Part shown: in pieces, positions 10,340 to 63,847 of the stretch
Layout of the letters: each line of letters begins with the position of its first letter
Numbering within the stretch: the stretch's first letter is position 1
From: Eledone cirrhosa
Lineage: Eukaryota
DNA length: 64,000 nucleotides
NCBI GenBank assembly: GCA_964016885.1
Contig: OZ024741.1
Coordinates: 271,002,001 to 271,066,000, forward strand
Reading direction: 5' to 3'
Made by a program: the position numbers and the translations under genes
Notes under the pieces: model-generated
What the model saw: the letters and a program-made list of their open reading frames with translations, nothing else
The model's database searches: none
What the model was told of the DNA's origin: nothing

Positions 10340-10581
10340 GCCGATCTTCTCAAGGGGTAATTCCATATATGGTCAAAGTGATTGTCAAAAATCAGTAGTA
10401 ATTCTGTGGTTGCAAATTAGTAGGGGAGATGGTGGCTAAACCTGCCAGTAGGAGAAAGAGGGGAGGGGGTGGAGTAGACCCAATCAAGCGTTGGTAGTGC
10501 CAGCTACAGCTGGGCATGAGGTCAAAGAAGATACAGGGGAGGGGGAGGGGGAGGAAGTCGGAACGGTAGGTAGAACAATGG

Positions 10582-16498: not shown

Positions 16499-16563
<65 letters not shown>

Positions 16564-16570
<7 letters not shown>

Positions 16571-19500
16571 TCGAGTTATAGTCGATCTTATGTAGAAGTC
16601 AACCCCCTATTTTGGGGGCAAAAATCTGGAATTTTCCATAGACCTCGTATATAAGTCGACTCAGGTATTTCCTGGAAAACAAATCAAGATTTGTGAGTCA
16701 AGGCATCATCCTGCAGAAATAACGGTGATAAACACGTCAAAAATTTAAGGTAAATTTACGTTATTGCAAATAAATGTCTGAAACTAAAAAATTACACAAA
16801 CGTGTGCCTACCCTACTGTAGCCTGTCCTACTGTAGCCTACACTACTGTAACCTGTACTACTGTAGCCTGTCCTACTGTAGCCTGTACTACTGTAGCCTA
16901 CCTTGCTGTAGCCTGTACTACTGTAGCCTACCTTGCTGTAGCCTGTACTACTGTAGCCTGTCCTACTGTAGCCTACACTACTGTAACCTGTACTACTGTA
17001 GCCTACCTTGCTGTAGCCTGTACTACTGTAGCCTACCTTATTGTAGCCTGTCCTACTGTAGCCTACCTTACTGTAGCCTGTACTACTGTAGCCTGTCCTA
17101 CTGCAGCCTGCCCTACTGTAGCCTGTACTACTGTAGCCTGCCCTACTGTAGCCTGCCCTACTGTAGCCTGTCCTACTGTAGCCTGTACTACTGTAGCCTG
17201 TACTACTGTAGCCTGTCCTACTGTAGCCTGTCCTAGTGTAGCCTGCCCTACTGTAGCCTGCCCTACTGTAGCCTGTCCTACTGTAGCCTGCCCTACTGTA
17301 GCCTGTCCTACTGTAGCCTGCCCTACTGTAGCCTGTCCTACTGTAGCCTGTCCTACTGTAGCCTGTCCTAGTGTAGCCTGTCCTACTGTAGCCTGTCCTA
17401 CTGTAGCCTGTCCTACTGTAGCCTGTACTACTGTAGCCTGTCCTACTGTAGCCTGTCCTAGTGTAGCCTGTCCTACTGTAGCCTGTCCTACTGTAGCCTG
17501 CCCTACTGTAGCCTGTCCTACTGTAGCCTGTCCTACTGTAGCCTGTCCTAGTGTAGCCTGTCCTACTGTAGCCTGTCCTACTGTAGCCTGTCCTACTGTA
17601 GCCTGTCTTACTGTAGCCTGTCCTACTGTAGCCTGTCCTACTGTAGCCTGTCCTACTGTAGCCTGTCCTAGTGTAGCCTGTCCTACTGTAGCCTGTCCTA
17701 CTGTAGCCTGTCCTACTGTAGCCTGTCCTACTGTAGCCTGTCCTAGTGTAGCCTGTCCTACTGTAGCCTGTCCTACTGTAGCCTGTCCTACTGTAGCCTG
17801 TCCTACTGTAGCCTGCCCTACTGTAGCCCGTCCTACTGTAGCCTGTCCTACTGTAGCCTGTCCTAGTGTAGCCTGTCCTACTGTAGCCTGTCCTACTGTA
17901 GCCTGTACTACTGTAGCCTGTCCTACTGTAGCCTGTCCTAGTGTAGCCTGTCCTACTGTAGCCTGTCCTACTGTAGCCTGTCCTACTGTAGCCTGTCCTA
18001 CTGTAGCCTGTCCTACTGTAGCCTGTCCTAGTGTAGCCTGTCCTACTGTAGCCTGTCCTACTGTAGCCTGTACTACTGTAGCCTGTCCTACTGTAGCCTG
18101 TCCTAGTGTAGCCTGTCCTACTGTAGCCTGTCCTACTGTAGCCTGCCCTACTGTAGCCTGTCCTACTGTAGCCTGTCCTACTGTAGCCTGTCCTAGTGTA
18201 GCCTGTCCTACTGTAGCCTGTCCTACTGTAGCCTGTACTACTGTAGCCTGTCCTACTGTAGCCTGTCCTACTGTAGCCTGTCCTAGTGTAGCCTGTCCTA
18301 CTGTAGCCTGTCCTACTGTAGCCTGTACTACTGTAGCCTGCCCTACTGTAGCCTGTCCTACTGTAGCCTGTCCTACTGTAGCCTGTCCTAGTGTAGCCTG
18401 TCCTACTGTAGCCTGTCCTACTGTAGCCTGTCCTACTGTAGCCTGTACTACTGTAGCCTGTCCTACTGTAGCCTGTCCTACTGTAGCCTGTCCTAGTGTA
18501 GCCTGTCCTACTGTAGCCTGTCCTACTGTAGCCTGTACTACTGTAGCCTGTCCTACTGTAGCCTGTACTACTGTAGCCTGTCCTACTGCAGCCTGTCCTA
18601 CTGTAGCCTGTCATACTGTAGTCTACCCTACTGTAGCTTGTCCTACTGTAGCCTACCCTACTGTAGCCTGTCCTACTGTAGCCTGTACTATTGTAGCCTG
18701 TCCTACTGTAGGCTGTCCTACTGTAGCCTGTCCTACTGTAGCCTGTCCTACTGTAGCCTGTCCTAATGTAGCCTGTCCTACTGTAGCCTACACTAATGTA
18801 GCCTGTACTACTGTAGCCTACCTTACTGTAGCCTTAACTACTGTAGCCTGTCCTACTGCAGCTGCCCTACTGTAGCCTGTACTACTGTAGCCTGCCCTAC
18901 TGTAGCCTGTCCTACTGTAGCCTGTCCTACTGTAGCCTACACTACTGTAGCCTGTCCTACTGTAGCCTGTCCTACTGTAGCCTGTCCTACTGTAGCCTGT
19001 CCTACCGTAGCCCGTCCTACTGTAGCCTGTCCTACTGTAGCCTGTACTACTGTAGCCTGTCCTACTGTAGCCTGCCCTACTGTAGCCTGTACTACTGTAG
19101 CCTGTCCTACTGTGGCCTGTCCTACTGTAGCCTGTCCTACTGTAGCCTGTCCTACTGTAGCCTGTCCTACTGTAGCCTGTCCTACTGTAGCCTGTCCTAC
19201 TGTAGCCTACCCTACTGTAGCCTACCCTACTGTAGCCTGTCCTACTGTAGCCTACACTACTGTAGCCTGCCCTACTGCAGCCTGTCCTACTGTAGCCTAC
19301 CCTACTGTAGCCTGTACTACTGTAGCCTACCCTACTGTAGCCTGTACTACTGTAGCCTGCCCTACTGTAGCCTGCCCTACTCCAGCCTGTACTACTGCAG
19401 CCTGCCCTACTGTAGCCTGCACTACTGTAGCCTGTACTACTGTAGCCTGCCCTACTGTAGTGTGTACTACTGTAGCCTGTCCTACTGTAGCCTGTCCTAC

Positions 19501-22500
19501 TGTAGCCTGTCCTACTGTAGCCTGTCCTACTGTAGCCTGTCCTACTGTAGCCTACCCTACTGTAGCCTGTCCTACTCTAGCCTGCCCTACTGTAGCCTAC
19601 CCTACTGTAGCCTGTCCTACTGTAGCCTGTACTACTGTAGCCTGTCCTACTGTAGCCTGTCCTAATCTAGCCTGCACTACTGTAGCCTGTACTACTGTAG
19701 TCTGTCCTACTGTAGCCTGCCCTACTGTAGCCTATCCTACTGTAGCCTGTACTACTCTAGCCTACCCTACTGTAACCTGTCCTACTGTAGCCCACCCTAC
19801 TGTAGCATGTCCTACTGTAGCTTACACTACAGTGGCCTGTCCTACTGTAGCCTGTCCTACTGAAGCCTGTTCCACTGTAGCCTGTCCTTCTGTAGCCTGT
19901 ACTACTGTAGCCTGTCCTACTGTAGCCTGTCCTACTGTAGCATGTCCTACTGTAGCCTACACTATTGTAGCCTGTACTACTGTAGCCCGTACTACTGTAG
20001 CCTGTACTACTGTAGCCTGTACTACTGTAGCCTGTCCTACTGTAGCCTGTCCTACTGTAGCCTCTACTACTGTAGCCTGTACTACTGTAGCCTGTACTAC
20101 TGTAGCCTACACTACTGTAGCCTGTACTACTGTAGCCTGTCCTACTTTTCCTGTCCTACTGTAGCCTACACTAGTGTAGACTGTACTACTCGAGCCTGTA
20201 CTACTGTAGCCTGTCCTACTGTAGCCTGTCCTACTGTAGCCTGTCCTACTGTAGCCTGTCCTACTGTAGCCTGTCCTACAGTAGACTGTCCTACTGAAGC
20301 CTGTCCTACTGTAGCCTGTCCTACTGTAGCCTGTCCTACTGTAGCCTGTCCTACTGTAGCCTGTCCTACTGTAGCCTGTCCTACTGTAGCCTGTCCTACA
20401 GTAGACTGTATTACTGTAGCCTGTCCTACTGTAGCCTGTCCTACTGTAGCCTGTCCTACTGTAGCCTGTCCTACTGTAGCCTGTCCTACTGTAGCCTGTC
20501 CTACTGTAGCCTACCCTACTGTAGCCTGTCCTACTGTAGCCTGTCCTACTGTAGCCTACACTACTGTAGCCTGCCCTACTGCAGCCTGTCCTACTGTAGC
20601 CTACCCTACTGTAGCCTGTACTACTGTAGCCTATACTGCTGTAGCCTACACTACTGTAGCCTGTCCTACTGTAGCCTGTCCTACTGTAGCCTGTCCTACT
20701 GTAGCCTGTCCTACTGTAGCCTGTCCTACTGTAGCCTGTCCTACTGTAGCCTGCCCAACTGTAGCCTGTCCTACTGTAGCCTGTACTACTGTAGCCTACC
20801 CTACTGTAGCCTACCATACTGTAGCCTGTAGTACTGCAGCCTGTCCTAGTGTAGCCTGTCCTACTGTAGCCTACCCTACTGTAGCCTGTACTACTGTAGC
20901 CTGTCCTACTGTAGCCTGTCCTACTGTAGCCTACCCTACTGTAGCCTGTCCTACTGAAACCTGTCCTACTGCAGCTGCCCTACTGTAGCCTGTACTACTG
21001 TAGCCTGCCCTACTGTAGCCTGCACTACTGTAGCCTGTACTACTGTAGCCTGCCCTACTGCAGTGTGTACTACTGTAGCCTGTCCTACTGTAGCCTGTCC
21101 TACTGTAGCCTGTCCTACTGTAGCCTGTCCTACTGTAGCCTGTCCTACTGTAGCCTACCCTACTGTAGCCTGTCCTACTCTAGCCTGCCCTACTCTAGCC
21201 TACCCTACTGTAGCCTGTCCTACTGTAGCCTGTACTACTGTAGCCTGTCCTACTGTAGCCTGTCCTACTGTAGCCTGTCCTACTGTAGCCTGTCCTACTG
21301 TAGACTGTCCTAATGTAGCCTGTCCTACTGTAGCCTACCCTACTGTAGCCTGTCCTACTGTAGCCTGTCCTACTGTAGCCTACACTACTGTAGCCTGCCC
21401 TACTGCAGCCTGTCCTACTGTAGCCTACCCTACTGTAGCCTGTACTACTGTAGCCTGTCCTACTGTAGCCTGTACTACTGTAGCCTACCCTACTGTAGCC
21501 TGTCGTACTGTAGCCTATACTGCTGTAGCCTACACTACTCTAGCTTGTCCTACTGTAGCCTGTCCTACTGTAGCCTGTCCTACTGTAGCCTGTCCTACTG
21601 TAGCCTGTCCTACTGTAGCCTGACCTACTGTAGCCTGTACTACTGTAGCCTACCCTACTGTAGCCTACCCTACTGTAGCCTACCATACTGTAGCCTGTAC
21701 TACTGTAGCCTTCCTACTGTGGCCTACCCTACTGTAGCCTGTCCTACTGAAACCTATCCTACTGCAGCTGCCCTACTGTAGCCTGTACTACTGTAGCCTG
21801 CCCTACTGTAGCCTGCACTACTGTAGCCTGTACTACTATAGCCTGCCCTACTGTAGTGTGTACTACTGTAGCCTGTCCTACTGTAGCCTGTCCTACTGTA
21901 GCCTGTCCTACTGTAGCCTGTCCTACTGTAGCCTGTCCTACTGTAGCCTACCCTACTGTAGCCTGTCCTACTCTAGCCTGCCCTACTGTAGCCTACCCTA
22001 CTGTAGCCTGTCCTAGTGTAGCCTGTCCTACTGTAGCCTACCCTACTGTAACCTGTCCTACTGTAGCCCACCCTACTGTAGCATGTCCTACTGTAGCTTA
22101 CACTACAGTGGCCTGTCCTACTGTAGCCTGTCCTACTGTAGCCTGTCCTACTGTAGCCTGTACTACTGTAGCCTGTCCTACTGTAGCCTGTCCTACTCTA
22201 GCCTGCACTACTGTAGCCTGTACTACTGTAGTCTGTCCTACTGTAGCCTGCCCTACTGTAGCCTATCCTACTGTAGCCTGTACTACTGTAGCCTACCCTA
22301 CTGTAACCTGTCCTACTGTAGCCCACCCTACTGTAGCATGTCCTACTGTAGCTTACACTACAGTGGCCTGTCCTACTGTAGCCTGTACTACTGTAGCCTG
22401 TCCTACTGAAGCCTGTTCCACTGTAGCCTGTCCTTCTGTAGCCTGTACTACTGTAGCCTGTCCTACTGTAGCCTGTCCTACTGTAGCATGTCCTACTGTA

Positions 22501-25500
22501 GCCTACACTATTGTAGCCTGTACTACTGTAGCCCGTACTCCTGTAGCCTGTACTACTGTAGCCTGTACTACTGTAGCCTGTCCTACTGTAGCCTGTCCTA
22601 CTGTAGCCTCTACTACTGTAGCCTGTACTACTGTAGCCTGTACTACTGTAGCCTACACTACTGTAGCCTGTACTACTGTAGCCTGTCCTACTTTTCCTGT
22701 CCTACTGTAGCCTACACTAGTGTAGACTGTACTACTCGAGCCTGTACTACTGTAGCCTGTACTACTGTAGCCTGTCCTACTGTAGCCTGCCCTACTGTAG
22801 CCTGTACTACTGTAGCCTGTCCTACTGTAGCCTGTCCTACTGTAGCCTGTCCTACTGTAGCCTGCCCTACTGTAGCCTACCCTACTGTAGCCTGTCCTAC
22901 TGTAGCCTGTACTACTGTAGCCTACACTACTGTAGTCTGTACTACTGTAGCCTGTCCTACTGTAGCCTGTCCTACCGTAGCCTGTCCTACTGTAGCCTGC
23001 CCTACTGTAGCCTACACTACTGTAGCCTGTCCTACTATAGCCTGCCCTACTGTAGCCTGTACTACTGTAGCCTGTCCTACTGTAGCCTGCCCTACTGTAG
23101 CCTACACTACTGTAGCCTGTCCTACTGTAGCCTACACTAGTGTAGTCTGTACTACTGTAGCCTGTCCTACTGTAGCCTGTCCTACCGTAGCCTGTCCTAC
23201 TGTAGCCTGTCCTACTGTAGCCTGTACTACTGTAGCCTGTCCTACTATAGCCTGCCCTACTATAGCCTGTACTACTGTAGCCTGTCCTACTGTGGCCTGT
23301 CCTACTGTAGCCTGTCCTACTGTAGCCTGTCCTACAGTAGACTGTACTACTGTAGCCTGTCCTACTGTAGCCTGTCCTACTGTAGCCTGTCCTACTGTAG
23401 CCTGTCCTACTGTAGCCTGTCCTACTGTAGCCTGTCCTACTGTAGCCTGTCCTACTGTAGCCTGTCCTACTATAGCCTGTCCTACTGTAGCCTACACTAC
23501 TGTAGCCTGCCCTACTGCAGCCTGTCCTACTGTAGCCTACCCTACTGTAGCCTGTACTACTGTAGCCTATACTGCTGTAGCCTACACTACTGTAGCCTGT
23601 CCTACTGTAGCCTGTCCTACTGTAGCCTGTCCTACTGTAGCCTGTCCTACTGTAGCCTGTCCTACTGTAGCCTGTACTACTGTAGCCTACCCTACTGTAG
23701 CCTACCATACTGTAGCCTGTAGTACTGCAGCCTGTCCTAGTGTAGCCTGTCCTACTGTAGCCTACCCTACTGTAGCCTGTACTACTGTAGCCTGTCCTAC
23801 TGTAGCCTGTCCTACTGTAGCCTGTACTACTGTAGCCTACCCTACTGTAGCCTGTACTACTGTAGCCCACCCTACTGTAGCCTGTCCTACTGAAACCTGT
23901 CCTACTGCAGCTGCCCTACTGTAGCCAGTACTACTGTAGCCTGCCCTACTGTAGCCTGCCCTACTCTAGCCTGTACTACTGCAGCCTGCCCTATTGTAGC
24001 CTGCACTACTGTAGCCTGTACTACTGTAGCCTGCCCTACTGTAGTGTGTACTACTGTAGCCTGTCCTACTGTAGCCTGTCCTACTGTAGCCTGTCCTACT
24101 GTAGCCTGTCCTACTGTAGCCTGTCCTACTGTAGCCTACCCTACTGTAGCCTGTCCTACTCTAGCCTGCCCTACTGTAGCCTACCCTACTGTAGCCTGTC
24201 CTACTGTAGCCTGTACTACTGTAGCCTGTCCTACTGTAGCCTGTCCTACTCTAGCCTGCCCTACTGTAGCCTGTACTACTGTAGCCTACACTATTGTAGC
24301 CTGTACTACTGTAGCCCGTACTACTGTAGCCTGTACTACTGTAGCCTGTCCTACTGTAGCCTGTCCTCTGTAGCCTCTACTACTGTAGCCTGTACTACTG
24401 TAGCCTGTACTACTGTAGCCTACACTACTGTAGCCTGTATTACTGTTGCCTGTCCTACTTTTCCTGTCCTACTGTAGCCTACACTAGTGTAGACTCTACT
24501 ACTATAGCCTGTACTACTGTAGCCTGTACTACTGTAGCCTGTCCTACTGTAGCCTGCCCTACTGTAGCCTGTACTACTGTAGCCTGTCCTACTGTAGCCT
24601 GTCCTACTGTAGCCTGTCCTACTGTAGCTTGCCCTACTGTAGCCTGTCCTACTGTAGCCTGTCCTACTGTAGCCTGTCCTACTGTAGCCTACACTACTGT
24701 AGTCTGTACTACTGTAGCCTGTCCTACTGTAGCCTGTCCTATCGTAGCCTGTCCTACTGTAGCCTGTACTACTGTAGCCTGTCCTACTGTAGCCTGCCCT
24801 ACTGTAGCCTACACTACTGTAGCCTGTCCTACTGTAGCCTACACTAGTGTAGTCTGTACTACTGTAGCCTGTCCTACTGTAGCCTGTCCTACTGTAGCCT
24901 GTCCTACTGTAGCCTGTCCTACTGTAGCCTGTCCTACCGTAGCCTGTCCTACTGTAGCCTGTACTACTGTAGACTGTACTACTGTAGCCTGTCCTACTGT
25001 AGCCTGTCCTACTGTAGCCTGTCCTACTGTAGCCTGTCCTACTGTAGACTGTACTACTGTAGCCTGTCCTACTGTAGCCTGTCCTACTGTAGCCTGTACT
25101 ACTGTAGCCTGACCTACTGTAGCCTGTCCTACTGTAGCCTGTCCTACTGTAGCCTGTCCTACTGTAGCCTGTCCTACTGTAGACTGTACTACTGTAGCCT
25201 GTCCTACTGTAGCCTGTCCTACTGTAGCCTGTACTACTGTAGCCTGACCTACTGTAGCCTGTCCTACTGTAGCCTGTCCTACTGTAGCCTGTCCTACTGT
25301 AGCCTGTCCTACTGTAGCCTACCCTACTGTAGCCTGTCCTACTGCAGCCTGTCCTACTGTAGCCTACACTACTGTAGCCTGTACTACTGTAGCCTGTCCT
25401 ACTGTAGCCTGTACTACTGTAGCCTACCCTACTGTAGCCTGTCCTACTGTAGCCTATACTGCTGTAGCCTACACTACTGTAGCCTGTCCTACTGTAGCCT

Positions 25501-28500
25501 GTCCTACTGTAGCCTACCCTACTGTAGCCTGTACTACTGTAGCCTGTCCTACTGTAGCCTGTCCTACTGTAGCCTACCCTACTGTAGCCTGTCCTACTGA
25601 AACCTGTCCTACTGTAGCCTGCCCTACTCTAGCCTGTACCACTGCAGCCTGCCATACTGTAGCCTGCACTACTGTAGCCTGTACTACTGTAGCCTGCCCT
25701 ACTGTAGTGTGTACTACTGTAGCCTGTCCTACTGTAGCCTGTCTTACTGTAGCCTGTCCTACTGTAGCCTGTCCTACTGTAGCCTGTCCTACTGTAGCCT
25801 ACCCTACTGTAGCCTGTCCTACTGTAGCCTATACTGCTGTAGCCTACACTACTGTAGCCTGTCCTACTGTAGCCTGTCCTACTGTAGCCTGTCCTACTGT
25901 AGCCTGTCCTACTGTAGCCTGTCCTACTGTAGCCTACCCTACTGTAGCCTGTACTACTGTAGCCTGTCCTACTGTAGCCTGTCTAACTGTAGCCTACCCT
26001 ACTGTAGCCTGCCCTACTCTAGCCTGTACTACTGCAGCCTGCCCTACTGCAGCTGCCCTACTGTAGCCTGTACTAATGTAGCCTGCCCTACTGTAGCCTG
26101 CCCTACTCTAGCCTGTACTACTGCAGCCTGCCCTACTGTAGCCTGCACTACTGTAGCCTGTACTACTGTAGCCTGCCCTACTGTAGTGTGTACTACTGTA
26201 GCCTGTCCTACTGCAGCCTGCCCTACTGTAGACTCTACTACTGTAGCCTGTCCTACTGTAGCCTACCCTACTGTAGCCTGTCCTACTGTAGCCTATCCTA
26301 CTGGAGCCTGCCCTACTGTAGCCTATCCTACTGTAGCCTGTACTACTGTAGCCTACCCTACTGTAACCTGTCCTACTGTAGCCCACCCTACTGTAGCATG
26401 TCCTACTTTAGCTTACACTACTGCAGCCTGTCCTACTGTAGCCCACCCTACTGTAGCATGTCCTACTGTAGCTTACACTACTGTAGCCTACCCTACTGTA
26501 GCCTTTCCTACTGTAGCCTGTCCTACTGTAGCCGGCGCTACTGTAGCCTATCCTACTGTAGGATGTACTACTGTAGCCTACCCTACTGTAACCTGTCCTA
26601 CTGTAGCCCACCCTACTGTAGCATGTCCTACTGTAGCTTACACTACTGCAGCCTGCCCTACTGTAGCCTGTACTACTGTAGCCTGTCCTACTGTAGCCCA
26701 CCCTACTGTAGCATGTCCTACTGTAGCTTACACTACTGCAGCCTGCCCTACTGTAGCCTGTACTACTGTAGCCTGTCCTACTGTAGCCTACCCTACTGTA
26801 GCCTGTACTACTGTAGCCTGTCCTACCGTAGCCTGTCCTACTGTAGCCTGTCCTACTGTAGCCTGCCCTACTGTAGCCTACCCTACTGTAGCCTGTCCTA
26901 CTGTAGCCTGTACTACTGTAGCCTACACTACTGTAGTCTGTACTACTGTAGCCTGTCCTACTGTAGCCTGTCCTACCGTAGCCTGTCCTACTGTAGCCTG
27001 CCCTACTGTAGCCTACACTACTGTAGCCTGTCCTACTATAGCCTGCCCTACTGTAGCCTGTACTACTGTAGCCTGTCCTACTGTAGCCTGCCCTACTGTA
27101 TCCTACACTACTGTAGCCTGTCCTACTGTAGCCTACACTAGTGTAGTCTGTACTACTGTAGCCTGTCCTACTGTAGCCTGTCCTACCGTAGCCTCCCCTA
27201 CTGTAGCCTGTCCTACTATAGCCTGTCCTACTGTAGCCTACACTACTGTAGCCTGCCCTACTGCAGCCTGTCCTACTGTAGCCTACCCTACTGTAGCCTG
27301 TACTACTGTAGCCTATACTGCTGTAGCCTACACTACTGTAGCCTGTCCTACTGTAGCCTGTCCTACTGTAGCCTGTCCTACTGTAGCCTGTCCTACTGTA
27401 GCCTGTCCTACTGTAGCCTGTACTACTGTAGCCTACCCTACTGTAGCCTACCATACTGTAGCCTGTAGTACTGCAGCCTGTCCTAGTGTAGCCTGTCCTA
27501 CTGTAGCCTACCCTACTGTAGCCTGTACTACTGTAGCCTGTCCTACTGTAGCCTGTCCTACTGTAGCCTGTACTACTGTAGCCTACCCTACTGTAGCCTG
27601 TACTACTGTAGCCCACCCTACTGTAGCCTGTCCTACTGAAACCTGTCCTACTGCAGCTGCCCTACTGTAGCCAGTACTACTGTAGCCTGCCCTACTGTAG
27701 CCTGCCCTACTCTAGCCTGTACTACTGCAGCCTGCCCTATTGTAGCCTGCACTACTGTAGCCTGTACTACTGTAGCCTGCCCTACTGTAGTGTGTACTAC
27801 TGTAGCCTGTCCTACTGTAGCCTGTCCTACTGTAGCCTGTCCTACTGTAGCCTGTCCTACTGTAGCCTGTCCTACTGTAGCCTACCCTACTGTAGCCTGT
27901 CCTACTCTAGCCTGCCCTACTGTAGCCTACCCTACTGTAGCCTGTCCTACTGTAGCCTGTACTACTGTAGCCTGTCCTACTGTAGCCTGTCCTACTCTAG
28001 CCTGCCCTACTGTAGCCTGTACTACTGTAGCCTACACTATTGTAGCCTGTACTACTGTAGCCCGTACTACTGTAGCCTGTACTACTGTAGCCTGTCCTAC
28101 TGTAGCCTGTCCTCTGTAGCCTCTACTACTGTAGCCTGTACTACTGTAGCCTGTACTACTGTAGCCTACACTACTGTAGCCTGTATTACTGTAGCCTGTC
28201 CTACTTTTCCTGTCCTACTGTAGCCTACACTAGTGTAGACTCTACTACTATAGCCTGTACTACTGTAGCCTGTACTACTGTAGCCTGTCCTACTGTAGCC
28301 TGCCCTACTGTAGCCTGTACTACTGTAGCCTGTCCTACTGTAGCCTGTCCTACTGTAGCCTGTCCTACTGTAGCTTGCCCTACTGTAGCCTGTCCTACTG
28401 TAGCCTGTCCTACTGTAGCCTGTCCTACTGTAGCCTACACTACTGTAGTCTGTACTACTGTAGCCTGTCCTACTGTAGCCTGTCCTATCGTAGCCTGTCC

Positions 28501-37500: not shown

Positions 37501-40500
37501 TGTCCTACTGTAGCCTGCCCTACTGTAGCCTGTACTACTGTAGACTGTACTACTGTAGCCTGTCCTACTGTAGCCTACCCTACTGTAGCCTGTACTACTG
37601 TAGCGTACCCTACTGTAGCCTGTACTACTGTAGCCTGCCCTACTGTAGCCTGTACTACTGTAGCCTACCCTACTGTAGCCTGTCCTACTGTAGCCTACCC
37701 TACTGTAGCCTGTCCTACTGTAGCCTACCCTACTGTAGCCTGCCCTACTGTAGCCTGTACTACTGTAGCCTGTCCTACTGTAGCCTGTACTACTGTAGCC
37801 TACCCTACTGTAGCCTGTCCTACTGTAGCCTACCCTACTGTAGCCTGTCCTACTGTAGCCTACCCTACTGTAGCCTGCCCTACTGTAGCCTGTACTACTG
37901 TAGCCTGTCCTACTGTAGCCTGTACTACTGTAGCCTACCCTACTGTAGCCTGTCCTACTGTAGCCTGCCCTACTGTAGCCTGTACTACTGTAGCCTACCC
38001 TACTGTAGCCTGTCCTACTGTAGCCTGCCCTACTGTAGCCTGCCCTACTGTAGCCTGTACTACTGTAGCCTACCCTACTGTAGCCTGTCCTACTGTAGCC
38101 TGTCCTACTGTAGCCTACCCTATTGTAGCCTACCCTACTGTAGCCTACCCTACTGTAGCCTGTCCTACTGTAGCCTACCCTACTGTAGCCTGCCCTACTG
38201 TAGCCTGTACTACTGTAGCCTGTCCTACTGTAGCCTGTACTACTGTAGCCTACCCTACTGTAGCCTGTCCTACTGTAGCCTGCCCTACTGTAGCCTGTCC
38301 TACTGTAGCCTACCCTATTGTAGCCTACCCTACTGTAGCCTACCCTACTGTAGCCTGTCCTACTGTAGCCTACCCTACTGTAGCCTGTCCTACTGTAGCC
38401 TACCCTACTGTAGCCTACCCTACTGTAGCCTGTCCTACTGTAGCCTGTCCTACTGTAGCCTGTACTACTGTAGCCTGTCCTACTGTAGCCTGTCCTACTG
38501 GAGCCTACCCTACTGTAGCCTGTCCTACTGTTGCCTGTACTACTGTAGCCTACCCTACTGTAGCCTGTACTACTGTAGCCTGTACCACTGTAGCCTGTCC
38601 TACTGTAGCCTACCCTACTGTAGCCTGTACTACTGTAGCCTACCCTACTGTAGCCTGTCCTACTGTAGCCTGTCCTACTGTAGCCTGTCCTACTGGAGCC
38701 TACCCTACTGTAGCCTACCCTACTGTAGCCTGTCCTACTGTAGCCTGTACTACTGTAGCCTACCCTACTGTAGCCTGTACTACTGTAGCCTGTACTACTG
38801 TAGCCTGTCCTACTGTAGCCTACACTACTGTAGCCTGTCCTACTGTAGCCTACCCTACTGTAGCCTGTCCTACTGTAGCCTGTCCTACTGTAGCCTGTCC
38901 TACTGGAGCCTACCCTACTGTAGCCTACCCTACTGTAGCCTGTCCTACTGTAGCCTGTACTACTGTAGCCTACCCTACTGTAGCCTGTACTACTGTAGCC
39001 TGTACTACTGTAGCCTGTCCTACTGTAGCCTACACTACTGTAGCCTGTCCTACTGTAGCCTACCCTACTGTAGCCTGCTCTACTGTAGCCTGTCCTACTG
39101 TAGCCTGCCCTACTGTAGCCTGTACTACTGTAGCCTGTACTACTGTAGCCTACCCTACTGTAGCCTGTACTACTGTAGCCTGTACTACTGTAGCCTGTAC
39201 TACTGTAGCCTACCCTACTGTAGCCTGTACTACTGTAGCCTGTACTACTGTAGCCTACCCTACTGTAGCCTGCCCTACTGTAGCCTGTACTACTGTAGCC
39301 TGTACTACTGTAGCCTGTCCTACTGTAGCCTGTCCTACTGTAGCCTGTACTACTGTAGCCTACCCTACTGTAGCCTACCCTACTGTAGCCTGTACTACTG
39401 TAGCCTGTACTAATGTAGCCTACCCTACTGTAGCCTACCCTACTGTAGCCTACCCTACTGTAGCCTGTACTACTGTAGCCTGTACTACTGTAGCCTACCC
39501 TACTGTAGCCTACCCTACTGTAGCCTACCCTACTGTAGCCTGTACTACTGTAGCCTGTACTAATGTAGCCTACCCTACTGTAGCCTGTCCTACTGTAGCC
39601 TGTCCTACAGTAGACTGTACTACTGTAGCCTGTCCTACTGTAGCCTGCCCTACTGTAGCCTGTACTACTGTAGCCTGTACTACTGTAGCCTACCCTACTG
39701 TAGCCTGTACTACTGTAGCCTGTACTACTGTAGCCTGTACTACTGTAGCCTACCCTACTGTAGCCTGTACTACTGTAGCCTGTACTACTGTAGTTTACCC
39801 TACTGTAGCCTGCCCTACTGTAGCCTGTACTACTGTAGCCTGTACTACTGTAGCCTACCCTACTGTAGCCTGTCCTACTGTAGCCTGTACTACTGTAGCC
39901 TACCCTACTGTAGCCTACCCTACTGTAGCCTGTACTACTGTAGCCTGTACTAATGTAGCCTACCCTACTGTAGCCTACCCTACTGTAGCCTACCCTACTG
40001 TAGCCTGTACTACTGTAGCCTGTACTACTGTAGCCTACCCTACTGTAGCCTACCCTACTGTAGCCTACCCTACTGTAGCCTGTACTACTGTAGCCTGTAC
40101 TACTGTAGCCTACCCTACTGTAGCCTGTCCTACTGTAGCCTGTCCTACAGTAGACTGTACTACTGTAGCCTGTCCTACTGTAGCCTGCCCTACTGTAGCC
40201 TGCCCTACTGTAGCCTGTCCTACTGTAGCCTGTACTACTGCAGCCTGTCCTACTGTAGCCTGTACTACTGTAGCCTACCCTACTGCAGCCTGTCCTACTG
40301 TAGCCTGTCCTACTGTAGCCTGCCCTACTGTAGCCTGTCCTACTGTAGCCTACCCTACTGTAGTCTACCCTACTGTAGCCTGTCCTACTGTAGCCTGTCC
40401 TACTGTAGCCTACCCTACTGTAGCCTGTCCTACTGTAGCCTGTCCTACTGTAGCCTGTCCTACTGTAGCCTGTCCTACTGTAGCCTGTCCTACTGTAGCA

Positions 40501-43500
40501 TACCCTACTGTAGTCTACCCTACTGTAGCCTGTCCTACTGTAGCCTGTCCTACTGTAGCCTACCCTACTGTAGCCTGTCCTACTGTAGCCTGTCCTACTG
40601 TAGCCTGTCCTACTGTAGCCTGTCCTACTGTAGCCTACCCTACTGTAGCTTGTCCTACTGTAGCCTACCCTATTGTAGCCTACCCTACTGTAGCCTGTCC
40701 TACTGTAGCCTGTCCTACTGTAGCCTGTCCTACTGTAGCCTACGCTACTGTAGCGTGTCCTACTGTAGCCTACCCTATTGTAGCCTACCCTACTGTAGCC
40801 TGTCCTACTGTAGCCTGTCCTACTGTAGCCTGTCCTACTGTAGCCTACCCTACTGTAGCCTGTACTACTGTAGCCTACCCTATTGTAGCCTGTCCTACTG
40901 TAGCCTACCCTACTGTAGCCTGTCCTACTGTAGCCTGTCCTACTGTAGCCTGTCCTACTGTAGCCTACCCTACTGTAGCCTGTCCTACTGTAGCCTACCC
41001 TATTGTAGCCTGTACTACTGTAGCCTGTCCTACTGTAGCCTGCCCTACTGTAGCCTACCCTACTGTAGCCTACCCTATTGTAGCCTGTACTACTGTAGCC
41101 TGTCCTACTGTAGCCTGCCCTACTGTAGCCTACCCTATTGTAGCCTGTACTACTGTAGCCTGTCCTACTGTAGCCTGCCCTACTGTAGCCTGTACTACTG
41201 TAGCCTGTCCTACTGTAGCCTACCCTACTGTAGCCTGCCCTACTGTAGCCTGTCCTACTGTAGCCTGTCCTACCGTAGCCTGTCCTACTGTAGCCTACCC
41301 TACTGTAGCCTACCCTACTGTAGCCTACCCTATTGTAGCCTGTACTACTGTAGCCTGTCCTACCGTAGCCTGTCCTACTGTAGCCTACCCTACTGTAGCC
41401 TACCCTACTGTAGCCTACCCTATTGTAGCCTGTACTACTGTAGCCTGTCCTACTGTAGCCTGTCCTATTGTAGCCTACCCTATTGTAGCCTGTACTACTG
41501 TAGCCTGTCCTACTGTAGCCTGCCCTACTGTAGCCTGTACTACTGTAGCCTGTCCTACTGTAGCCTACCCTACTGTAGCCTGCCCTACTGTAGCCTGTCC
41601 TACTGTAGCCTACCCTACTGTAGCCTGTCCTACTGTAGCCTACCCTACTGTAGCCTGTCCTACTGTAGCCTACCCTACTGTAGCCTACCCTACTGTAGCC
41701 TGTACTACTGTAGCCTACCCTACTGTAGCCTACCCTACTGTAGCCTACCCTACTGTAGCCTGCCCTACTGTAGCCTACCCTACTGTAGCCTGTCCTACTG
41801 TAGCCTACCCTATTGTAGCCTACCCTACTGTAGCCTGTCCTACTGTAGCCTACACTAGTGTAGCTGTCCTACTGTAGCCTGTCCTACTGTAGCCTGTAGT
41901 ACTGCAGCCTGTTCTACTGTAGCCTGTACTACTGTAGCCTGCCCTACCGTAGCCTACCCTACTGTAGCCTACCCTACTGTAGCCTGCTCTACTGTAGCCT
42001 GTACTACTGTAGCCTGTCCTACTGTAGCCTGTAGTACTGTAGCCTACCCTACTGTAGCCTACCATACTGTAGCCTGTCCTACTGTAGCCTACCCTATTGT
42101 AGCCTGTCCTACTGTAGCCTGTAGTACTGTAGCCTACCCTACTGTAGCCTACCATACTGTAGCCTGTCCTACTGTAGCCTGTCCTACTGTAGCCTATACT
42201 ACTGTAGCCTGTACTACTGTAGCCTGTCCTACTGTAGCCTACCCTATTGTAGCCTGTACTACTGTAGCATGTCCTACTGTAGCCTACACTACTGTAGCCT
42301 GTCCTACTGTAGCCTACACTACTGTAGCCTGTACTACTGTAGCCTGTCCTACTGTAGCCTGTCCTACTGTAGCCTATACTACTGTAGCCTGTACTACTGT
42401 AGCCTGTCCTACTGTAGCCTGCCCTACTGTAGCCTGTCCTACTGTAGCCTGTACTACTGTAGCCTGTCCTACTGTAGCCTGCCCTACTGTAGCCTGTCCT
42501 ACTGTAGCCTGTACTACTGTAGCCTGTCCTACTGTAGCCTGCCCTACTGTAGCCTGTCCTACTGTAGCCTGTACTACTGTAGCCTGTCCTACTGTAGCCT
42601 GTCCTACTGTAGCCTGTACTACTGTAGCCTGTCCTACTGTAGCCTGCCCTACTGTAGCCTGTACTACTGTATCCTGTCCTACTGTAGCCTGTCCTACTCT
42701 AGCCTGTACTACTGTAGCCTGTCCTACTGTAGCCTACCGTATTGTCGCCTGTACTACTGTAGCCTGTACTAACGTAGCCTGTCCTACTGTAGCCTGTCCT
42801 ACTGTAGCCTGTCCTACTGTAGCCTGTCCTACTGTAGCCTGTACTACTGTAGCCTGCCCTACTGTAGCCTGTCCTACTGTAGCCTGTCCTACTGTAGCCT
42901 GTCCTACTGTAGCCTGAACTACTGTAGCCTGTCCTACTGTAGCCTGCCCTACTGTAGCCTGTCCTACTGTAGCCTACCCTACTGTAGCCTGTCCTACTGT
43001 AGCCTGCCCTACTGTAGCCTGTCCTACTGTAGCCTACCCTACTGTAGCCTGCCCTACTGTAGCCTGTCCTACTGTAGCCTGTACTACTGTAGCCTGTCCT
43101 ACTGTAGCCTGTCCTACTGTAGCCTGTCCTACTGTAGCCTGTCCTACTGTAGCCTACCCTACTGTAGCCTGCCCTACTGTAGCCTGTACTACTGTAGCCT
43201 GTCCTACTGTAGCCTGTCCTACTGTAGCCTGTCCTACTGTAGCCTACCCTACTGTAGCCTATCCTACTGTAGCCTGCCCTACTGTAGCCTGTCCTACTGT
43301 AGCCTACCCTACTGTAGCCTGCCCTACTGTAGCCTGTCCTACTGTAGCCTGTACTACTGTAGCCTGTCCTACTGTAGCCTGTCCTACTGTAGCCTGTACT
43401 ACTGTAGCCTGTACTACTGTAGCCTGTCCTACTCTAGCCTACCCTACTGTAGCCTGTCCTACTGTAGCCTGTCCTACTGTAGCCTGTCCTACTGTAGCCT

Positions 43501-46500
43501 GCCCTACTGTAGCCTGTCCTACTGTAGCCTACCCTACTGTAGCCTGTCCTACTGTAGCCTGTCCTACTGTAGCCTGTCCTACTGTAGCCTACCCTACTGT
43601 AGCCTGTCCTACTGTAGCCTACCCTACTGTAGCCTGCCCTACTGTAGCCTGTCATACTGTAGCCTACCCTACTGTAGCCTGCCCTACTGTAGCCTGTCCT
43701 ACTGTAGCCTACCCTACTGTAGCCTGCCCTACTGTAGCCTGTCCTACTGTAGCCTGTCCTACTGTAGCCTGTCCTACTGTAGCCTACCCTACTGTAGCCT
43801 GCCCTACTGTAGCCTGTCCTACTGTAGCCTGTACTACTGTAGCCTGTCCTACTGTAGCCTGTCCTACTGTAGCCTGTCCTACTGTAGCCTACCCTACTGT
43901 AGCCTGTCCTACTGTAGCCTGTCCTACTGTAGCCTGTCCTACTGTAGCCTACCCTACTGTAGCCTGTCCTACTGTAGCCTACCGTACTGTAGCCTACCCT
44001 ACTGTAGCCTACCCTACTGTAGCCTGTCCTACTGTAGCCTGTACTACTGTAGCCTGCCCTACTGTAGCCTGTCCTACTGTAGCCTGTCTTACTGTAGCCT
44101 ACCCTACTGTAGCCTGTCCTACTGTAGCCTGCCCTACTGTAGCCTGTCCTACTGTAGCCTGTCCTACTGTAGCCTGTCCTACTGTAGCCTGCCCTACTGT
44201 AGCCTGTCCTACTGTAGCCTGTCCTACTGTAGCCTGCCCTACTGTAGCCTGTCCTACTGTAGCCTGTCCTACTGTAGCCTGTCCTACTGTAGCCTGCCCT
44301 ACTGTAGCCTGTCCTACTGTAGCCTGCCCTACTGTAGCCTGTCCTACTGTAGCCTGTACTACTGTAGCCTGTCCTACTGTAGCCTGTCCTACTGTAGCCT
44401 GTCCTACTGTAGCCTACCCTACTGTAGCCTGTCCTACTGTAGCCTGTACTACTGTAGCCTACCCTACTGTAGCCTGCCCTACTGTAGCCTGTCCTACTGT
44501 AGCCTGTCCTACTGTAGCCTGCCCTACTGTAGCCTGTCCTACTGTAGCCTGTCCTACTGTAGCCTGCCCTACTGTAGCCTGTCCTACTGTAGCCTGTACT
44601 ACTGTAGCCTGTCCTACTGTAGCCTGTCCTACTGTAGCCTGTCCTACTGTAGCCTACCCTACTGTAGCCTGTCCTACTGTAGCCTGTACTACTGTAGCCT
44701 ACCCTACTGTAGCCTGCCCTACTGTAGCCTGTCCTACTGTAGCCTGTCCTACTGTAGCCTGTCCTACTGTAGCCTGTCCTACTGTAGCCTGTCCTACTGT
44801 AGCCTGCCCTACTGTAGCCTGTCCTACTGTAGCCTGCCCTACTGTAGCCTGTCCTACTGTAGCCTGTACTACTGTAGCCTGTCCTACTGTAGCCTGTCCT
44901 ACTGTAGCCTGTCCTACTGTAGCCTACCCTACTGTAGCCTGTCCTACTGTAGCCTGTACTGCTGTAGCCTACCCTACTGTAGCCTGCCCTACTGTAGCCT
45001 GTCCTACTGTGGCCTGTCCTACTGTAGCCTGTACTACTGTAGCCTGTACTACTGTAGCCTGTCCTACTGTAGCCTGTCCTACTGTAGCCTGTCCTACTGT
45101 AGCCTGTCCTACTGTAGCCTGCCCTACTGTAGCCTGTCCTACTGTAGCCTGTCCTACTGTAGCCTGTCCTACTGTAGCCTGCCCTACTGTAGCCTACCCT
45201 ACTGTAGCCTGTACTACTGTAGCCTGTCCTACTGTAGCCTGCCCTACTGTAGCCTGTCCTACTGTAGCCTTTCCTACTGTAGCCTACCCTACTGTAGCCT
45301 GTCCTACTGTAGCCTGTACTGCTGTAGCCTGTACTACTGTAGCCTATCCTACTGTAGCCTGTGCTACTGTAGCCTATACTGCTGTAGCCTGCCCTACTGT
45401 AGCCTACCCTACTGTAGCCTGTCCTACTGTAGTCTGTCCTACTCTAGCCTGTCATACTGTAGCCTGTCCTACTGTAGCCTGTCCTATTGTAGCCTACACT
45501 AATGTAGCCTGTACTACTGTAGCCTATACTGCTGTAGCCTGCCCTACTGTAGCCTACCCTACTGTAGCCTGTCTTACTGTAGCCTGTCCTACTGTAGCCT
45601 GTCCTACTGTAGCCTGTACTACTGTAGCCTGTACTACTGTAGCCTGTACTACTGTAGCCTGTCCTACTGTAGCCTGTCCTACTCTAGCCTTTCCTACTGT
45701 AGCCTCTCCTACTCTAGCCTGTCCTACTGTAGCCTGTCCTACTGTAGCCCGTCCTACTGTAGTCTGTCCTACTCTAGCCTGTCCTACTGTAGCTTACACT
45801 AGTGTAGACTGTACTACTCTAGCCTGTACTACTGTAGCCCGTCCTACTGTAGCCGTACTACTGTAGCCTGCCCTACTGTAGTCTGTCCTACTCTAGCCTG
45901 TCCTACTGTAGCCTGTCCTACTGTAGCCTGTCCTACTGTAGTCTGTCCTACTGTAGTCTGTCCTACTGTAGCCTGTCCTACTGTAGTCTGTCCTACTCTA
46001 GCCTGTCCTACTGTAGCCTGTCCTACTGTAGCCTGCCCTACTGTAGTCTGTCCTACTCTAGCCTGTCCTACTGTAGCCTGTCCTACTGTAGCCTGTACTA
46101 CTGTAGCCCGTACTACTGTAGCCTGTACTACTGTAGCCTGTCCTAATGTAGCCTGTACTACTGTAGCCTACCCTACTGTAGCCTGTCCTACTGTAGCCTG
46201 TCCTACTGTAGCCTGTCCTACTCTAGCCTGTCCTACTGTAGCCTGTCCTACTGTAGCCTGCCCTACTGTAGCCTGTCCTACTGTAGCCTGTCCTACTGTA
46301 GCTTGCCCTACTGTAGCCTGTCCTACTGTAGCCTGTCCTACTGTAGCCTGTCGTACTGTAGCCTACCCTACTGTAGCCTGTCCTACTGTAGCCTGTTCTA
46401 CTGTAGCCTGTACTACTGTAGCCTGCCCTACTCTAGCCTGTCCTACTGTAGCCTGTACTACTGTAGCCTGCCCTACTGTAGCCTGGCCTACTGTAGCCTG

Positions 46501-47685
46501 TCCTACTGTAGCCTGGCCTACTGTAGCCTGTCCTACTGTAGCCTGTCCTACTGTAGCCTGCCCTACTGTAGCCTGCTCTACTGTAGTCTGTATTACTGTA
46601 GCCTGTACTACTGTAGCCTACCCTACTGTAGCCTGTCATACTGTAGCCTGTCCTACTCTAGCCTGTCCTACTCTAGCCTGTCCTACTGTAGCCTGTACTA
46701 CTGTAGCCTGTACTACTGTAGCCTACCCTACTGCAGCCTACCCTACTGTAGCCTGTCCTACTGTAGCCTGTCCTACTGTAGCCTGTCCTACTGTAGCCTG
46801 TCCTACTGTAGCCTGTCCTACTGTAGCCTGTCCTACTGTAGCCTGTCCTACTGTAGCCCACCCTACTGTAGCCTGTCCTACTGTAGCCCACCCTACTTTA
46901 GCCTGTCCTACTGTAGCCCACCCTACTGTAGTCTGTACTACTGTAGCCTGTCCTACTGTAGCCTGTCCTACTGTAGCCCACCCTACTGTAGCCTGTCCTA
47001 CTGTAGTCTGTACTACTGTAGCCTGTCCTACTGTAGCCTGTCCTACTGTAGCCCACCCTACTGTAGCCTGTCCTACTGTAGCCCACCCTACTGTAGCCTG
47101 TCCTACTGTAGTCTGTACTACTGTAGCCTGTCCTACTGTAGCCTGTCCTACTGTAGCCCACCCTACTGTAGCCTGTCCTACTGTAGCCTGTCCTACTGTA
47201 GCCCACCCTACTGTAGCCTGTCCTACTGTATGCTCTGTAGCTGGAGATTGTGATGCAAAACACGCTGAGTAGTCATCGGCCCTGTGTACAGTATTACGCT
47301 AGGCAATGAGATACCGGTAGACATATTACCCATGATAATATACAGTATTTATGAGATATAATTTGATGGTACTAAGCTAGTCTGTTAAGTTTAATGGATA
47401 CGACTGAAACAGCAAATGTAAATATTTATAAGAGCCTCACTGCCTTCTTTATGGACTTTGTTATTTACTAGGACGTGTGTTTTGATGAATAGAATCGGTA
47501 ATATTACTGCAATTCATTGTCTTTTGGTTTTTATTCATTTAAACCTCTGCTACTGAGATATGTTACTTTGGATTCTAGCTAGAATTTCAAGCCCCTCAAA
47601 AGTGGTATCCATGTAATAGTCGACCACACAAATTTAACCATAAAATATGTTCTAAAAAATTCGACTTTTACACCAGTTTAAACGG

Positions 47686-47687
<2 letters not shown>
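16564..47687. mobile_element. Tc2/pogo-like (Tc1-mariner superfamily) non-autonomous DNA transposon split by the 15-bp satellite; left arm 16564-16805, right arm 47231-47687
   Basis: Left TATATACTCGAGTTATAGTCGA versus right TCGACTTTTACACCAGTTTAAACGG|TA (reverse complement TA|CCGTTTAAACTGGTGTAAAAGTCGA); both fit a CCGTATATACTCGxGTATAAGTCGA-type TIR; subterminal AGTCGAC-like repeats in both arms; (TA)n on both outer sides. TIRs are imperfect. Confidence 0.6.
16806..47230. repeat. ~30.4-kb tandem array of a 15-bp unit (consensus CCTACTGTAGCCTGT; about 2,000 units) with higher-order repeats
   Basis: Direct reading; near-constant CTACTGTAGCCT core plus a variable triplet (GTC/GTA/GCC/ACC/ACA). 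Confidence 0.98.
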
Positions 47688-48579
<892 letters not shown>

Positions 48580-48965: not shown

Positions 48966-50223
48966 TTAGGTAAGTCGGGTCTTCTCTATTACTGAGTACC
49001 GCCAAAGGTCTCGATCCAGTGACATTGTCATGGTGAGGTGTAAGTGTGTGAGGTCGGAGTTTATCAGCTCGTCCCAGGTTTTTCTGGGTCTGCCTATTCC
49101 GTGGCTACCGTCTATCTTTATTGCTCTGCACTTTGTTATACAGCTATCGTCCTTCATGCGCATCACGTGACCATACCAACGTAGCCTTCTCTCTAGTAAA
49201 CAACATCTGATCCCTCTTATTTCTAATTTTTTCCTTAGTTCGTTTATGCTTTATCGTTCACGTATATTACTATTACACATCCAGCGGAGCATGCAAGCTT
49301 CGTTTCTCTCTCGTCTGCGTATATCCTCTGCACACAATGCCCAGGTCTCACTGCCATGCAACATTGCTGTTCGTATGCAGGCATCGTACAACCTGCCTTT
49401 CATTTTTAGGGAGAACCCTTTAGCGGCTAATAGTGGTATAAGCTCTCTGAACTTTTTCCACCCAGTTCTGACTCTAGCTACTGTACTTTCAGAGCACCCT
49501 CCCCCACTGCTGATTTTGTCACCCAGGTAACGGAAGCTGTCCACTATTTCTATAGAACCCTCTGTGCAGTTGAAAGAGCTAGTATTTTGTGGGCACATCT
49601 GCGTATAGGAGTTTCCATGGGCAGCCGGTCTTGAACTCCACTGTTATAGCCTGGAGGGCGATAATAAATAGTAGGGGGCTAAGAACAGAGCCCTGATGAA
49701 CACCAACTTTTACACTAAACTCTTCACTATATTCGTTGTTAATTCTAACCTTGCTGACTGTTTCTTGATACATGGCTTGTATAGCTCTCACAAGCCATTC
49801 ATCAACACCTAGTTTTCTAAGAGCCCACCAGATAATGGAACGGGGGACTCTGTCGAAGGCCTTCTCCAAGTCGACGAAAGCTAAGTATAGGGGTTTACTT
49901 TTAGCTAGGTACTTCTCCTGTAGTTGTCGTACAATGAAAAGAGCGTCTGTGGTACTTTTTCCTGACACAAACCCGAACTGCATTTCATCTAGATCAATTC
50001 GCTCTCTGATTAGTTGCGCTATTACTTTTTCCGTGACCTTCATGACCTGGTCGATTAATTTAATGCCTCTATAGTTACTCCTATCTAGGGCATCTCCTTT
50101 ACCCTTATAACAGTTAACGACGATGCTGCTACGCCAGTCCTTCGGAACAACCCCATTCTGTATGACTTGGTTTACTATCCGGGTGACCATGGTGTGTCCC
50201 ACCATTCCAGAAGCTTTCAGCAT
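48966..50223 (-). pseudogene. RTE reverse transcriptase and C-terminus with deletion and frameshifts
   Basis: YKGKGD..NYRGIKL, QFGFVSGKSTTDA, FVDLEKAFDRVPR, GVHQGSVLSPLLF, LLYAD then a jump to EIVDSFRYLGD. Confidence 0.9.
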
Positions 50224-50224
50224 T

Positions 50225-51832: not shown

Positions 51833-52201
51833 CTCTCCGTAGTCCTTCCATCCTACATATCGAAGGCGACCAGGTAAGCGATAGTATAGGCCTCTGGCTT
51901 ATGATTGGTCCACGTAATAATAATGGTGGTGCGTGGGGGCGCGAGGGAGGGGTGTTGAGTTGTTAGCGAGAAGGATAGGTTTAAGTGAGATCCCCGTATT
52001 TAACGAACGTAAACAAAAATACAAGATTTGTTTAGTAAAATACGCCAAAAACTTCCGTATTTTACAAGCATGACAAAAATACAAGAGATTTGTTTTGGAA
52101 AATACAGGGGGAAATAGGATGGATGGATGGCTAGTGAGACAAGAATTGGAAAGAGGATAGAAAAAATGCTATTGGAAGGTATATATGTATATATATATAT
52201 T

Positions 52202-60363: not shown

Positions 60364-60402
<39 letters not shown>

Positions 60403-60619: not shown

Positions 60620-60654
<35 letters not shown>

Positions 60655-63815: not shown

Positions 63816-63847
<32 letters not shown>

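What the first reader, a model, noticed from the sequence alone, without database searches (positions are those of the whole stretch)
16564..47687. A 30-kb satellite apparently expanded inside a ~700-bp Tc2/pogo-like MITE
Seen: only ~240 bp (left) and ~455 bp (right) of non-tandem sequence separate the array from (TA)n, and their outer ends are imperfect inverted repeats sharing a TATAAGTCGA-like motif that recurs subterminally. Known: CCGTA-starting TIRs with TA targets typify Tc2/pogo-like elements, and non-autonomous transposons can carry internal tandem repeats. Inference: a transposon-borne minisatellite grew to about 40 times the element's own length, so a MITE family may be seeding satellite blocks in this genome.
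Basis: partly seen in the sequence, partly recalled or inferred. Interest (0 to 1): 0.75.

Follow-up and report, generated by a model that had tools for sequence, protein, structure and literature searches.

The report
One-off satellite inside a dead transposon
A 30-kb run of about 2,030 copies of a 15-base unit sits inside one old copy of a small DNA transposon, at the exact spot where sister copies carry that unit once, and it occurs nowhere else in the assembly, so it likely grew in place after the transposon landed: a clean example of a known process, not a transposon family spreading a satellite.

Summary
The array (16806-47230, 2,030 units) is bracketed by the two arms of one dispersed, TA-flanked element family: 91 of 117 other family loci keep both ends (217-1,534 bp, median 680). 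Sister copies carry a 1.6-copy imperfect repeat at exactly this point (40 of 117 keep it, none expanded). The first array unit matches it at 14 of 15 bases, and ancestral-type units cluster at the left edge. The family's ends match a 2.7-kb Passer-type pogo transposon (DD35D) in the same genome at 20-21 of 25 bases; the direct parent was not found. The 'family seeds satellite blocks' reading fails for this unit: genome-wide pattern counts equal the window counts (140/140, 1,195/1,195, 1,950/1,950). Other copies hold only short arrays of other units, about as often as flanking DNA does. The left end is broken, so the swollen copy is likely immobile. 3.7-4.0-kb blocks 98-99.9% alike point to recent growth by large duplications. 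An independent run bridges the right junction; total length is unverified. This scan has already noted many arrays born inside transposons in this genome. Known kind of event, tidy example.

The parts
16501..16569 (.). (TA)34.5 run at the left target site; merged with the TATATA of the left terminal repeat
16564..16585 (+). Remnant of the left terminal inverted repeat; first three bases (CCG) missing
   Evidence: against family ends
16564..16805 (+). Left arm of the non-autonomous element
   Evidence: 40 scored genome hits, 76-85% identity
16806..16820 (+). First array unit = the family's seed unit, 14 of 15 bases, collinear with the arm
16806..47230 (+). 15-bp tandem array, 2,030 units, five main variants differing at unit positions 5-7; found only here
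   Evidence: uniqueness
16896..17075 (+). Edge zone holding 5 of the 8 units that keep the ancestral ACCTT core
23451..30940 (+). Two adjacent copies of a 3,746-bp block (about 250 units), 2 mismatches in 3,700 bases
31099..34700 (+). Third, older copy of that block (lag 4,016-4,031); 56 mismatches in 3,587 aligned bases against the second copy
47231..47245 (+). Remnant of the seed's second, partial repeat, ending at an internal-deletion junction (about 400 bp of family interior missing, TGGA on both sides)
47231..47685 (+). Right arm of the element
   Evidence: 40 scored genome hits, 75-84% identity; an independent run bridges the junction
47661..47685 (-). Right terminal inverted repeat, 22 of 25 identical to the family majority
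47686..48577 (.). TA target dinucleotide and 0.9-kb TA-rich run at the right flank

Best explanation
This is a single-locus 15-bp array of 30 kb lying inside one old, non-coding copy of a Passer-like (pogo) DNA transposon family, and it likely arose after insertion by slippage between two imperfect direct repeats 15 bp apart that sister copies carry, then likely grew by unequal exchange. Shown: the arms belong to one family; the seed lies at the same point in sister copies; both halves of the seed still bracket the array; the array is unique in the assembly; it holds nested duplications from 135 bp to 4 kb. Inferred steps: (1) a copy inserted at a TA site during the family's old burst and lost about 400 bp of interior; (2) mispairing of GCCTACCTTA with GCCTGCCCTA duplicated 15 bp, giving a hybrid unit and two core types (ACC, GCC), from which GTC, GTA and ACA differ by single changes; (3) local duplications spread the variants, sparing the left edge; (4) 3.7-4.0-kb blocks were duplicated last. 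The element is a passive substrate with no inferred function. With its left end broken it is unlikely to move the array.
For: Arms co-occur in order in 49 of 55 loci and 91 of 117. The seed is kept in 40 of 117 loci and never as two full units at 2 or fewer mismatches. First unit 14/15 to the seed at the collinear site, chance about 4e-8 for that one position. 5 of 8 ancestral-core units lie in the first 18 of 2,030 units. Genome count equals window count for three two- or three-unit patterns, reverse strand 0. The window's arms are 12.7% from the family majority against a median of 12.6% for 49 copies, while internal blocks differ by 0.05-1.6%, so growth is far younger than insertion. A 313-base contig of run X2 bridges array and right arm with 4 differences in 292 bases, and X2 holds many array contigs. 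A 2.7-kb transposon with BrkDBD + HTH_Tnp_Tc5 + DDE_1 and D-D-35-D spacing shares 20-21 of 25 terminal bases. Initiation between short direct repeats is a described route (PMC3389668, passages).
Against: No empty or unexpanded allele of this locus was seen, so the order insertion-then-expansion rests on divergence and on sister copies. Homogenisation can make an old array look young. The family sample is biased to copies that resemble the window's arms and were intact enough to be found (117 loci of at least several hundred candidates). Why this copy and not the other 40 expanded is unexplained; hairpin folding is no better than shuffles. Slippage, gene conversion and unequal crossing-over cannot be told apart from one sequence. 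The 3,746-bp pair is nearly identical and could be an assembly duplication. The X2 bridge is one contig at depth 4.
Confidence: 0.85

Rival explanations
1. The family carries and spreads tandem arrays (miDNA4-like) and is a special source of satellite blocks; other large arrays exist but with other units or in unassembled DNA.
For: Two of 117 copies hold element-derived arrays of 250 bp or more (L200, 56 bp x 5.8; L209, 76 bp x 5.9) and a few hold shorter ones. Earlier unreviewed notes report other transposon families in this genome with many swollen copies. Copies swollen by large arrays would be under-sampled by arm searches.
Against: The 15-mer is single-locus. Patterns for a tripled 21-bp internal repeat and for a tandem 56-bp subterminal unit gave 0 matches at 3 mismatches (the latter also missed L200, whose units carry an indel, so it is not a sensitive test). 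Arrays occur at 2 per 62 kb of element and 9 per 355 kb of flank, about the same rate.
Confidence: 0.08
2. The array is real but its length is inflated by mis-assembly of the near-identical 3.7-4.0-kb blocks.
For: The 3,746-bp pair differs at only 2 of 3,700 bases. No long read was available; neither run spans even the junction stretches in one piece.
Against: The third copy differs at 56 of 3,587 bases plus a 15-bp gap; most of the array has a non-repeating order of variants; no N in the window. Removing one block would still leave about 26.7 kb. This rival changes the size, not the origin.
Confidence: 0.12
3. A satellite that arose elsewhere was captured by, or inserted into, the element.
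For: Capture of a pre-existing repeat is proposed for miDNA4 (PMC12628747, passages).
Against: No other copy of the array in the assembly; the unit is collinear with the family's own seed, and both halves of the seed bracket the array.
Confidence: 0.02

Closest known systems
miDNA4 of Xenopus tropicalis (Scalvenzi and Pollet 2014; seen only through passages of the reviews PMC12628747, and PMC9659126)
   Same: A non-autonomous Tc1/mariner-group element whose interior holds a repeat as a single monomer or as an array, proposed to yield satellite DNA.
   Different: There many copies carry arrays and capture of a pre-existing repeat is proposed; here 1 copy is expanded against 0 of 40 seed-bearing sisters, and the unit is made from the element's own 1.6-copy repeat.
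Human TE-derived minisatellites (Ahmed and Liang 2012, PMC3389668; passages), including the direct-repeat model it credits to Haber and Louis
   Same: Single-locus arrays started inside a resident element after insertion; some are flanked by short direct repeats and explained by slippage, conversion or unequal crossing-over.
   Different: Most of the repeats that paper discusses have very few units; this one has 2,030 units with kb-scale higher-order blocks, and the host is a DNA transposon.
Passer family of pogo transposons (PMC7386202 and PMC9976928; passages)
   Same: TA target, terminal repeats under 30 bp; a Brk + HTH_Tnp_Tc5 + DD35D element in this genome shares 20-21 of 25 terminal bases.
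   Different: The element here codes for nothing, and its interior does not match that 2.7-kb family, so this is a relative, not the parent.
Anolis TcMar-N4_AC and TcMar-N6_AC (PMC3014272; table row and passage)
   Same: Non-autonomous, TA target, 23-25-bp ends; the first 20 bases of N6 match this family's ends at 18 of 20; N4 is described as similar to the Tc2-related DNA5_Xt.
   Different: Only the ends were compared; the passages I saw mention no internal array.
DTC84 of Donax trunculus (PMC3879986; search listing and start of abstract only)
   Same: Tandem repeats inside a non-autonomous element.
   Different: There short arrays are part of the element itself; here the mobile form has no array.

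Membership tests
Passer / pogo (Tc2-like) non-autonomous element | TA target duplication | tested here: inconclusive
   TA abuts both ends in the window and in sister copies, but the window's flanks are TA runs, no empty site was seen, and the pattern demanded TA.
Passer / pogo (Tc2-like) non-autonomous element | Short terminal inverted repeats (under 30-40 bp) | tested here: met
   25-bp ends in the family (71 exact pattern matches, 0 for the reversed control); right end 22/25 in the window, left end lacks 3 bases.
Passer / pogo (Tc2-like) non-autonomous element | Ends shared with a Passer transposase element (BrkDBD + HTH_Tnp_Tc5 + DD35D) | tested here: met
   2.65-2.69-kb elements, ends 20-21/25 identical, first 13 bases the same; spacing D266-D302 = 35.
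Passer / pogo (Tc2-like) non-autonomous element | Direct derivation from an identified autonomous element | tested here: not met
   No interior match in 30 of 151 DDE_1 loci or in 24 BrkDBD loci and 3 full elements; only 30 DDE_1 loci were examined.
MITE (strict sense) | Short, non-coding, with terminal inverted repeats, dispersed in many copies | tested here: met
   Median 680 bp; 385 and 239 first-look candidates; no translated match to transposase loci.
MITE (strict sense) | Uniform size and sequence from a burst of one master copy (criterion recalled, not from a call) | tested here: not met
   217-1,534 bp with many different internal deletions; copies 8-28% from the majority sequence.
miDNA4-type tandem-repeat-carrying MITE | Variable-length arrays of the same unit in many copies | tested here: not met
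   0 of 40 seed-bearing copies with two full units; two-unit pattern only in the window.
TE-derived single-locus minisatellite | Unit homologous and collinear to a segment of the host element, host sequence on both sides | tested here: met
TE-derived single-locus minisatellite | Length polymorphism among individuals | not testable with these tools
   Only two runs kept as short contigs were served.
Classical satellite DNA (abundant, heterochromatic or centromeric; criterion as in the abstract start of PMC10048060) | High abundance at several sites or at the centromere | tested here: not met
   30 kb at one site of a 3.0-Gb assembly; chromatin state not testable.

The most novel reading that the evidence does not exclude
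The locus is a satellite caught at birth and still growing: one slip in a dead Passer-type element made a hybrid 15-mer that no sister copy has, and the array now changes in steps of about 250 units, so living individuals should differ by multiples of 3.7-4 kb. That would make it a natural test bed for how a two-copy repeat becomes a higher-order satellite, with ancestor, edge relics and every later step readable at one site.
Probability: 0.35. Interest if true: 0.5.

Novelty: new member of a known kind. Interest (0 to 1): 0.3.

Why it matters
Satellite origins are usually erased. Here the ancestral seed (40 sister copies), both its halves, edge relics and nested duplications are all preserved at one site, so the path from imperfect repeat to 30-kb higher-order array can be read. 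The negative result also matters: the transposon is a passive substrate, arrays arise in it about as often as in neighbouring DNA, and so the cause of large expansions lies with the genome or with chance, not with this family. The process itself is described in reviews and was noted repeatedly in this genome by earlier, unreviewed reports.

Tried and rejected
Hairpin explanation: the unit holds a 9-base odd palindrome, but four-unit folds are no more stable than shuffled units (fraction of shuffles as stable 0.17-0.73 for the four commonest units; only one strand of the minor ACA unit reached 0.02, 1 of 14 tests). Parent among the best DDE_1 hits: none in 30 of 151 loci; those with visible ends start CAG. 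Expansion of two other internal repeats: 0 matches (weak tests). Preference for TA runs: 8 of 30 ends lie in three or more TA against 12% of background TA positions, 5 of 30 in five or more against 9%; small sample, not pursued. Run X1 holds family pieces but has no cover at 47195-47245 and little over the first units; contigs cannot show absence, so this is not used as evidence. Neither run covers the whole left arm. A T-to-C difference at 47234 in X2 equals the ancestral base but rests on one contig at depth 4. Coding role: the long open frames in the array follow from a stop-free 15-bp period and were not tested further; three of six non-array frames scanned are LINE endonuclease or reverse transcriptase and three had no Pfam match; no host gene was identified. 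The Taylor and Breden paper on minisatellite birth is not held and was not read. One search for pogo + Tc2 + Passer + CCGT found no paper; a search including 'octopus' listed no cephalopod study of such arrays among 15 of 203 papers shown. I make no claim that the locus or family is absent from print or from repeat libraries, which could not be searched. No supplementary files were read; TIR tables in the pogo and Passer supplements may name this family's closer relatives.

Full report
Observation. The window has one array at 16812-47230 with period 15 and 2,029.6 copies. Read in phase it begins at 16806 and holds 2,030 units, 2,005 of 15 bp and 25 of 14 bp; there is no N. It is separated from TA runs by 242 bp on the left and 455 bp on the right, a ratio of 43.7. 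The ends are imperfect inverted repeats. Neither reads CCGTA in the window: the left has lost three bases into the TA run and the right matches the family's majority end at 22 of 25.

The arms are one family. Searches of the window's own genome (3.0 Gb, 1,796 contigs) gave 385 and 239 first-look candidates for the right and left arm, 40 scored each, at 75-85% identity. Of the 60 loci fetched, 55 were distinct and not the window; 49 held both arms in the same order. A terminal-repeat pattern gave 71 exact matches and 0 for its reversed control. After fetching more places I had 125 distinct loci; 117 matched the family, 91 of these kept both ends, with lengths of 217-1,534 bp, median 680. The spread comes from different internal deletions and later insertions, so this is a set of old deletion derivatives rather than a uniform MITE. 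The window's arms are 12.7% from the majority sequence; the median for 49 copies is 12.6%. The sample favours copies that resemble the window.

Superfamily. The 30 best of 151 DDE_1 loci did not share the ends. A BrkDBD search gave 24 loci, most of one family whose ends start with the same 13 bases as ours and match at 20-21 of 25. [quoted passage not shown] This is the Passer description in PMC7386202 and PMC9976928 (passages). Interiors do not match, so it is a younger relative, not the parent. Anole TcMar-N6_AC ends match at 18 of 20, and that paper links TcMar-N4 to a Tc2-related frog element (PMC3014272, table row and passage).

Origin of the unit. Sister copies carry, straight after the left-arm sequence, GCCTACCTTACTGTA followed by GCCTGCCCTATAGCTGG: one full unit and a partial second one. 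40 of 117 loci keep this seed; none has two full units at 2 or fewer mismatches. At 3 mismatches one of 55 loci and L133 scored two; in L133 this is the ordinary seed pair. The array's first unit matches the seed at 14 of 15 at the collinear position (chance about 4e-8), and a remnant of the partial second repeat follows the last unit at 47231-47245, then a deletion of about 400 bp with TGGA on both sides. That junction was not found in the other 117 loci; the 14 near matches were the normal undeleted sequence. The cores ACC and GCC are the two seed halves; GTC (dominant, 710 exact units), GTA and ACA follow by single changes. Of 8 units with the ancestral ACCTT core, 5 lie in the first 18 units. 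I infer that mispairing between the two halves made the first duplication.

The array is single-locus. An exact 44-base pattern gave 140 genome matches and 140 in the window. A degenerate two-unit pattern gave 1,195 and 1,195, and with 2 mismatches 1,950 and 1,950; the reverse strand gave 0 each time. DNA missing from the assembly is not covered. Other copies do make arrays from other segments: L200 (56 bp x 5.8, between two subterminal direct repeats) and L209 (76 bp x 5.9, a related subfamily), plus a few of under 170 bp. But arrays of 250 bp or more number 2 in 62 kb of element and 9 in 355 kb of flank, about the same rate on small numbers. Patterns for expansion of two other internal repeats found nothing, though the second also missed L200. 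So the element looks like a passive substrate in a genome that makes such arrays often; earlier unreviewed notes say the same.

Growth. Variant order shows duplications at lags of 135-645 bp and blocks of 3,746 and 4,016-4,031 bp. The first two blocks differ at 2 of 3,700 bases, the third at 56 of 3,587 plus a one-unit gap. Against 12.7% for the arms, most of the present length is recent, unless homogenisation has reset the clock. Unequal crossing-over or conversion is the likely cause (inference; the routes are listed in PMC3389668, passages). The near-identical pair could be an assembly duplication, which would cut the size by 3.7 kb but not change the origin.

Independent data. Two runs were served, both as short contigs. 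In X2 one 313-base contig at depth 4 covers 47195-47486 with 4 differences, bridging array and right arm, and summed depth over array units is in the thousands; this shows presence, not copy number. X2 may or may not be the sample behind the assembly. The left junction was not bridged by a long orthologous piece. No long reads were available.

What it does. Probably nothing selected. The left end is broken, so mobilisation is unlikely (inference from the need for two ends, PMC9976928). Folding is no better than shuffled units. Nearby long frames that matched Pfam are LINE remnants, and no host gene was identified.

Comparison and verdict. Expansion of short repeats inside non-autonomous elements is described for miDNA4 and Xstir (review passages; originals not seen), and post-insertion minisatellite birth for thousands of human loci. 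It works like the latter; it fails the miDNA4 test of arrays in many copies. Earlier notes of this scan report arrays of 19-230 kb inside hAT, piggyBac-like and pogo elements in the same genome (not checked here); none matched this sequence or place. The locus is a new, unusually legible member of a known kind. Interest 0.3.

Noticed in passing
window 6941-8409: A second 15-bp array (mixed with a 9-bp sub-unit) built, like the main one, of a 9-base odd palindrome plus a 6-base spacer; its fold is not beyond shuffles. Origin not traced.
   Followed up: partly
window 60157-64000: A CAAC/CACC-type array with periods 8, 12 and 20, extremely strand-skewed, runs off the window's right end.
   Followed up: no
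L252, L253, L256, L258 (for example G000:C3:42838450-42841140): A 2.7-kb Passer-type DD35D transposon family, copies 93-95% alike, with a 380-codon open frame in L242; at least 17 loci share its left end.
   Followed up: partly
L200:2632-2959 and L209:2265-2716: Short arrays (56 bp x 5.8; 76 bp x 5.9 with an inner 20-bp repeat) grown from other parts of the same or a related element: early stages of the same process.
   Followed up: partly
window 16501-16569; L017, L024, L045, L054, L055: The terminal CCG is lost where the target TA and the TATATA of the terminal repeat merge into one TA run, apparently a recurrent way for these elements to lose an end.
   Followed up: no
L003, L006, L020, L026, L033; L034, L041, L138, L139: Shared deletion junctions define subfamilies that likely multiplied after the deletion.
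   Followed up: no
window 49579-51898 (-) and 54369-55493 (+): LINE remnants: endonuclease and reverse transcriptase matches.
   Followed up: no
window 10452-11498 (+): A 348-codon stop-free frame outside any tandem repeat with no Pfam match.
   Followed up: no
L052:1900-3170: About 1.3 kb of other sequence interrupts a family copy and the family sequence resumes after it; looks like a nested DNA transposon by eye, not tested.
   Followed up: no
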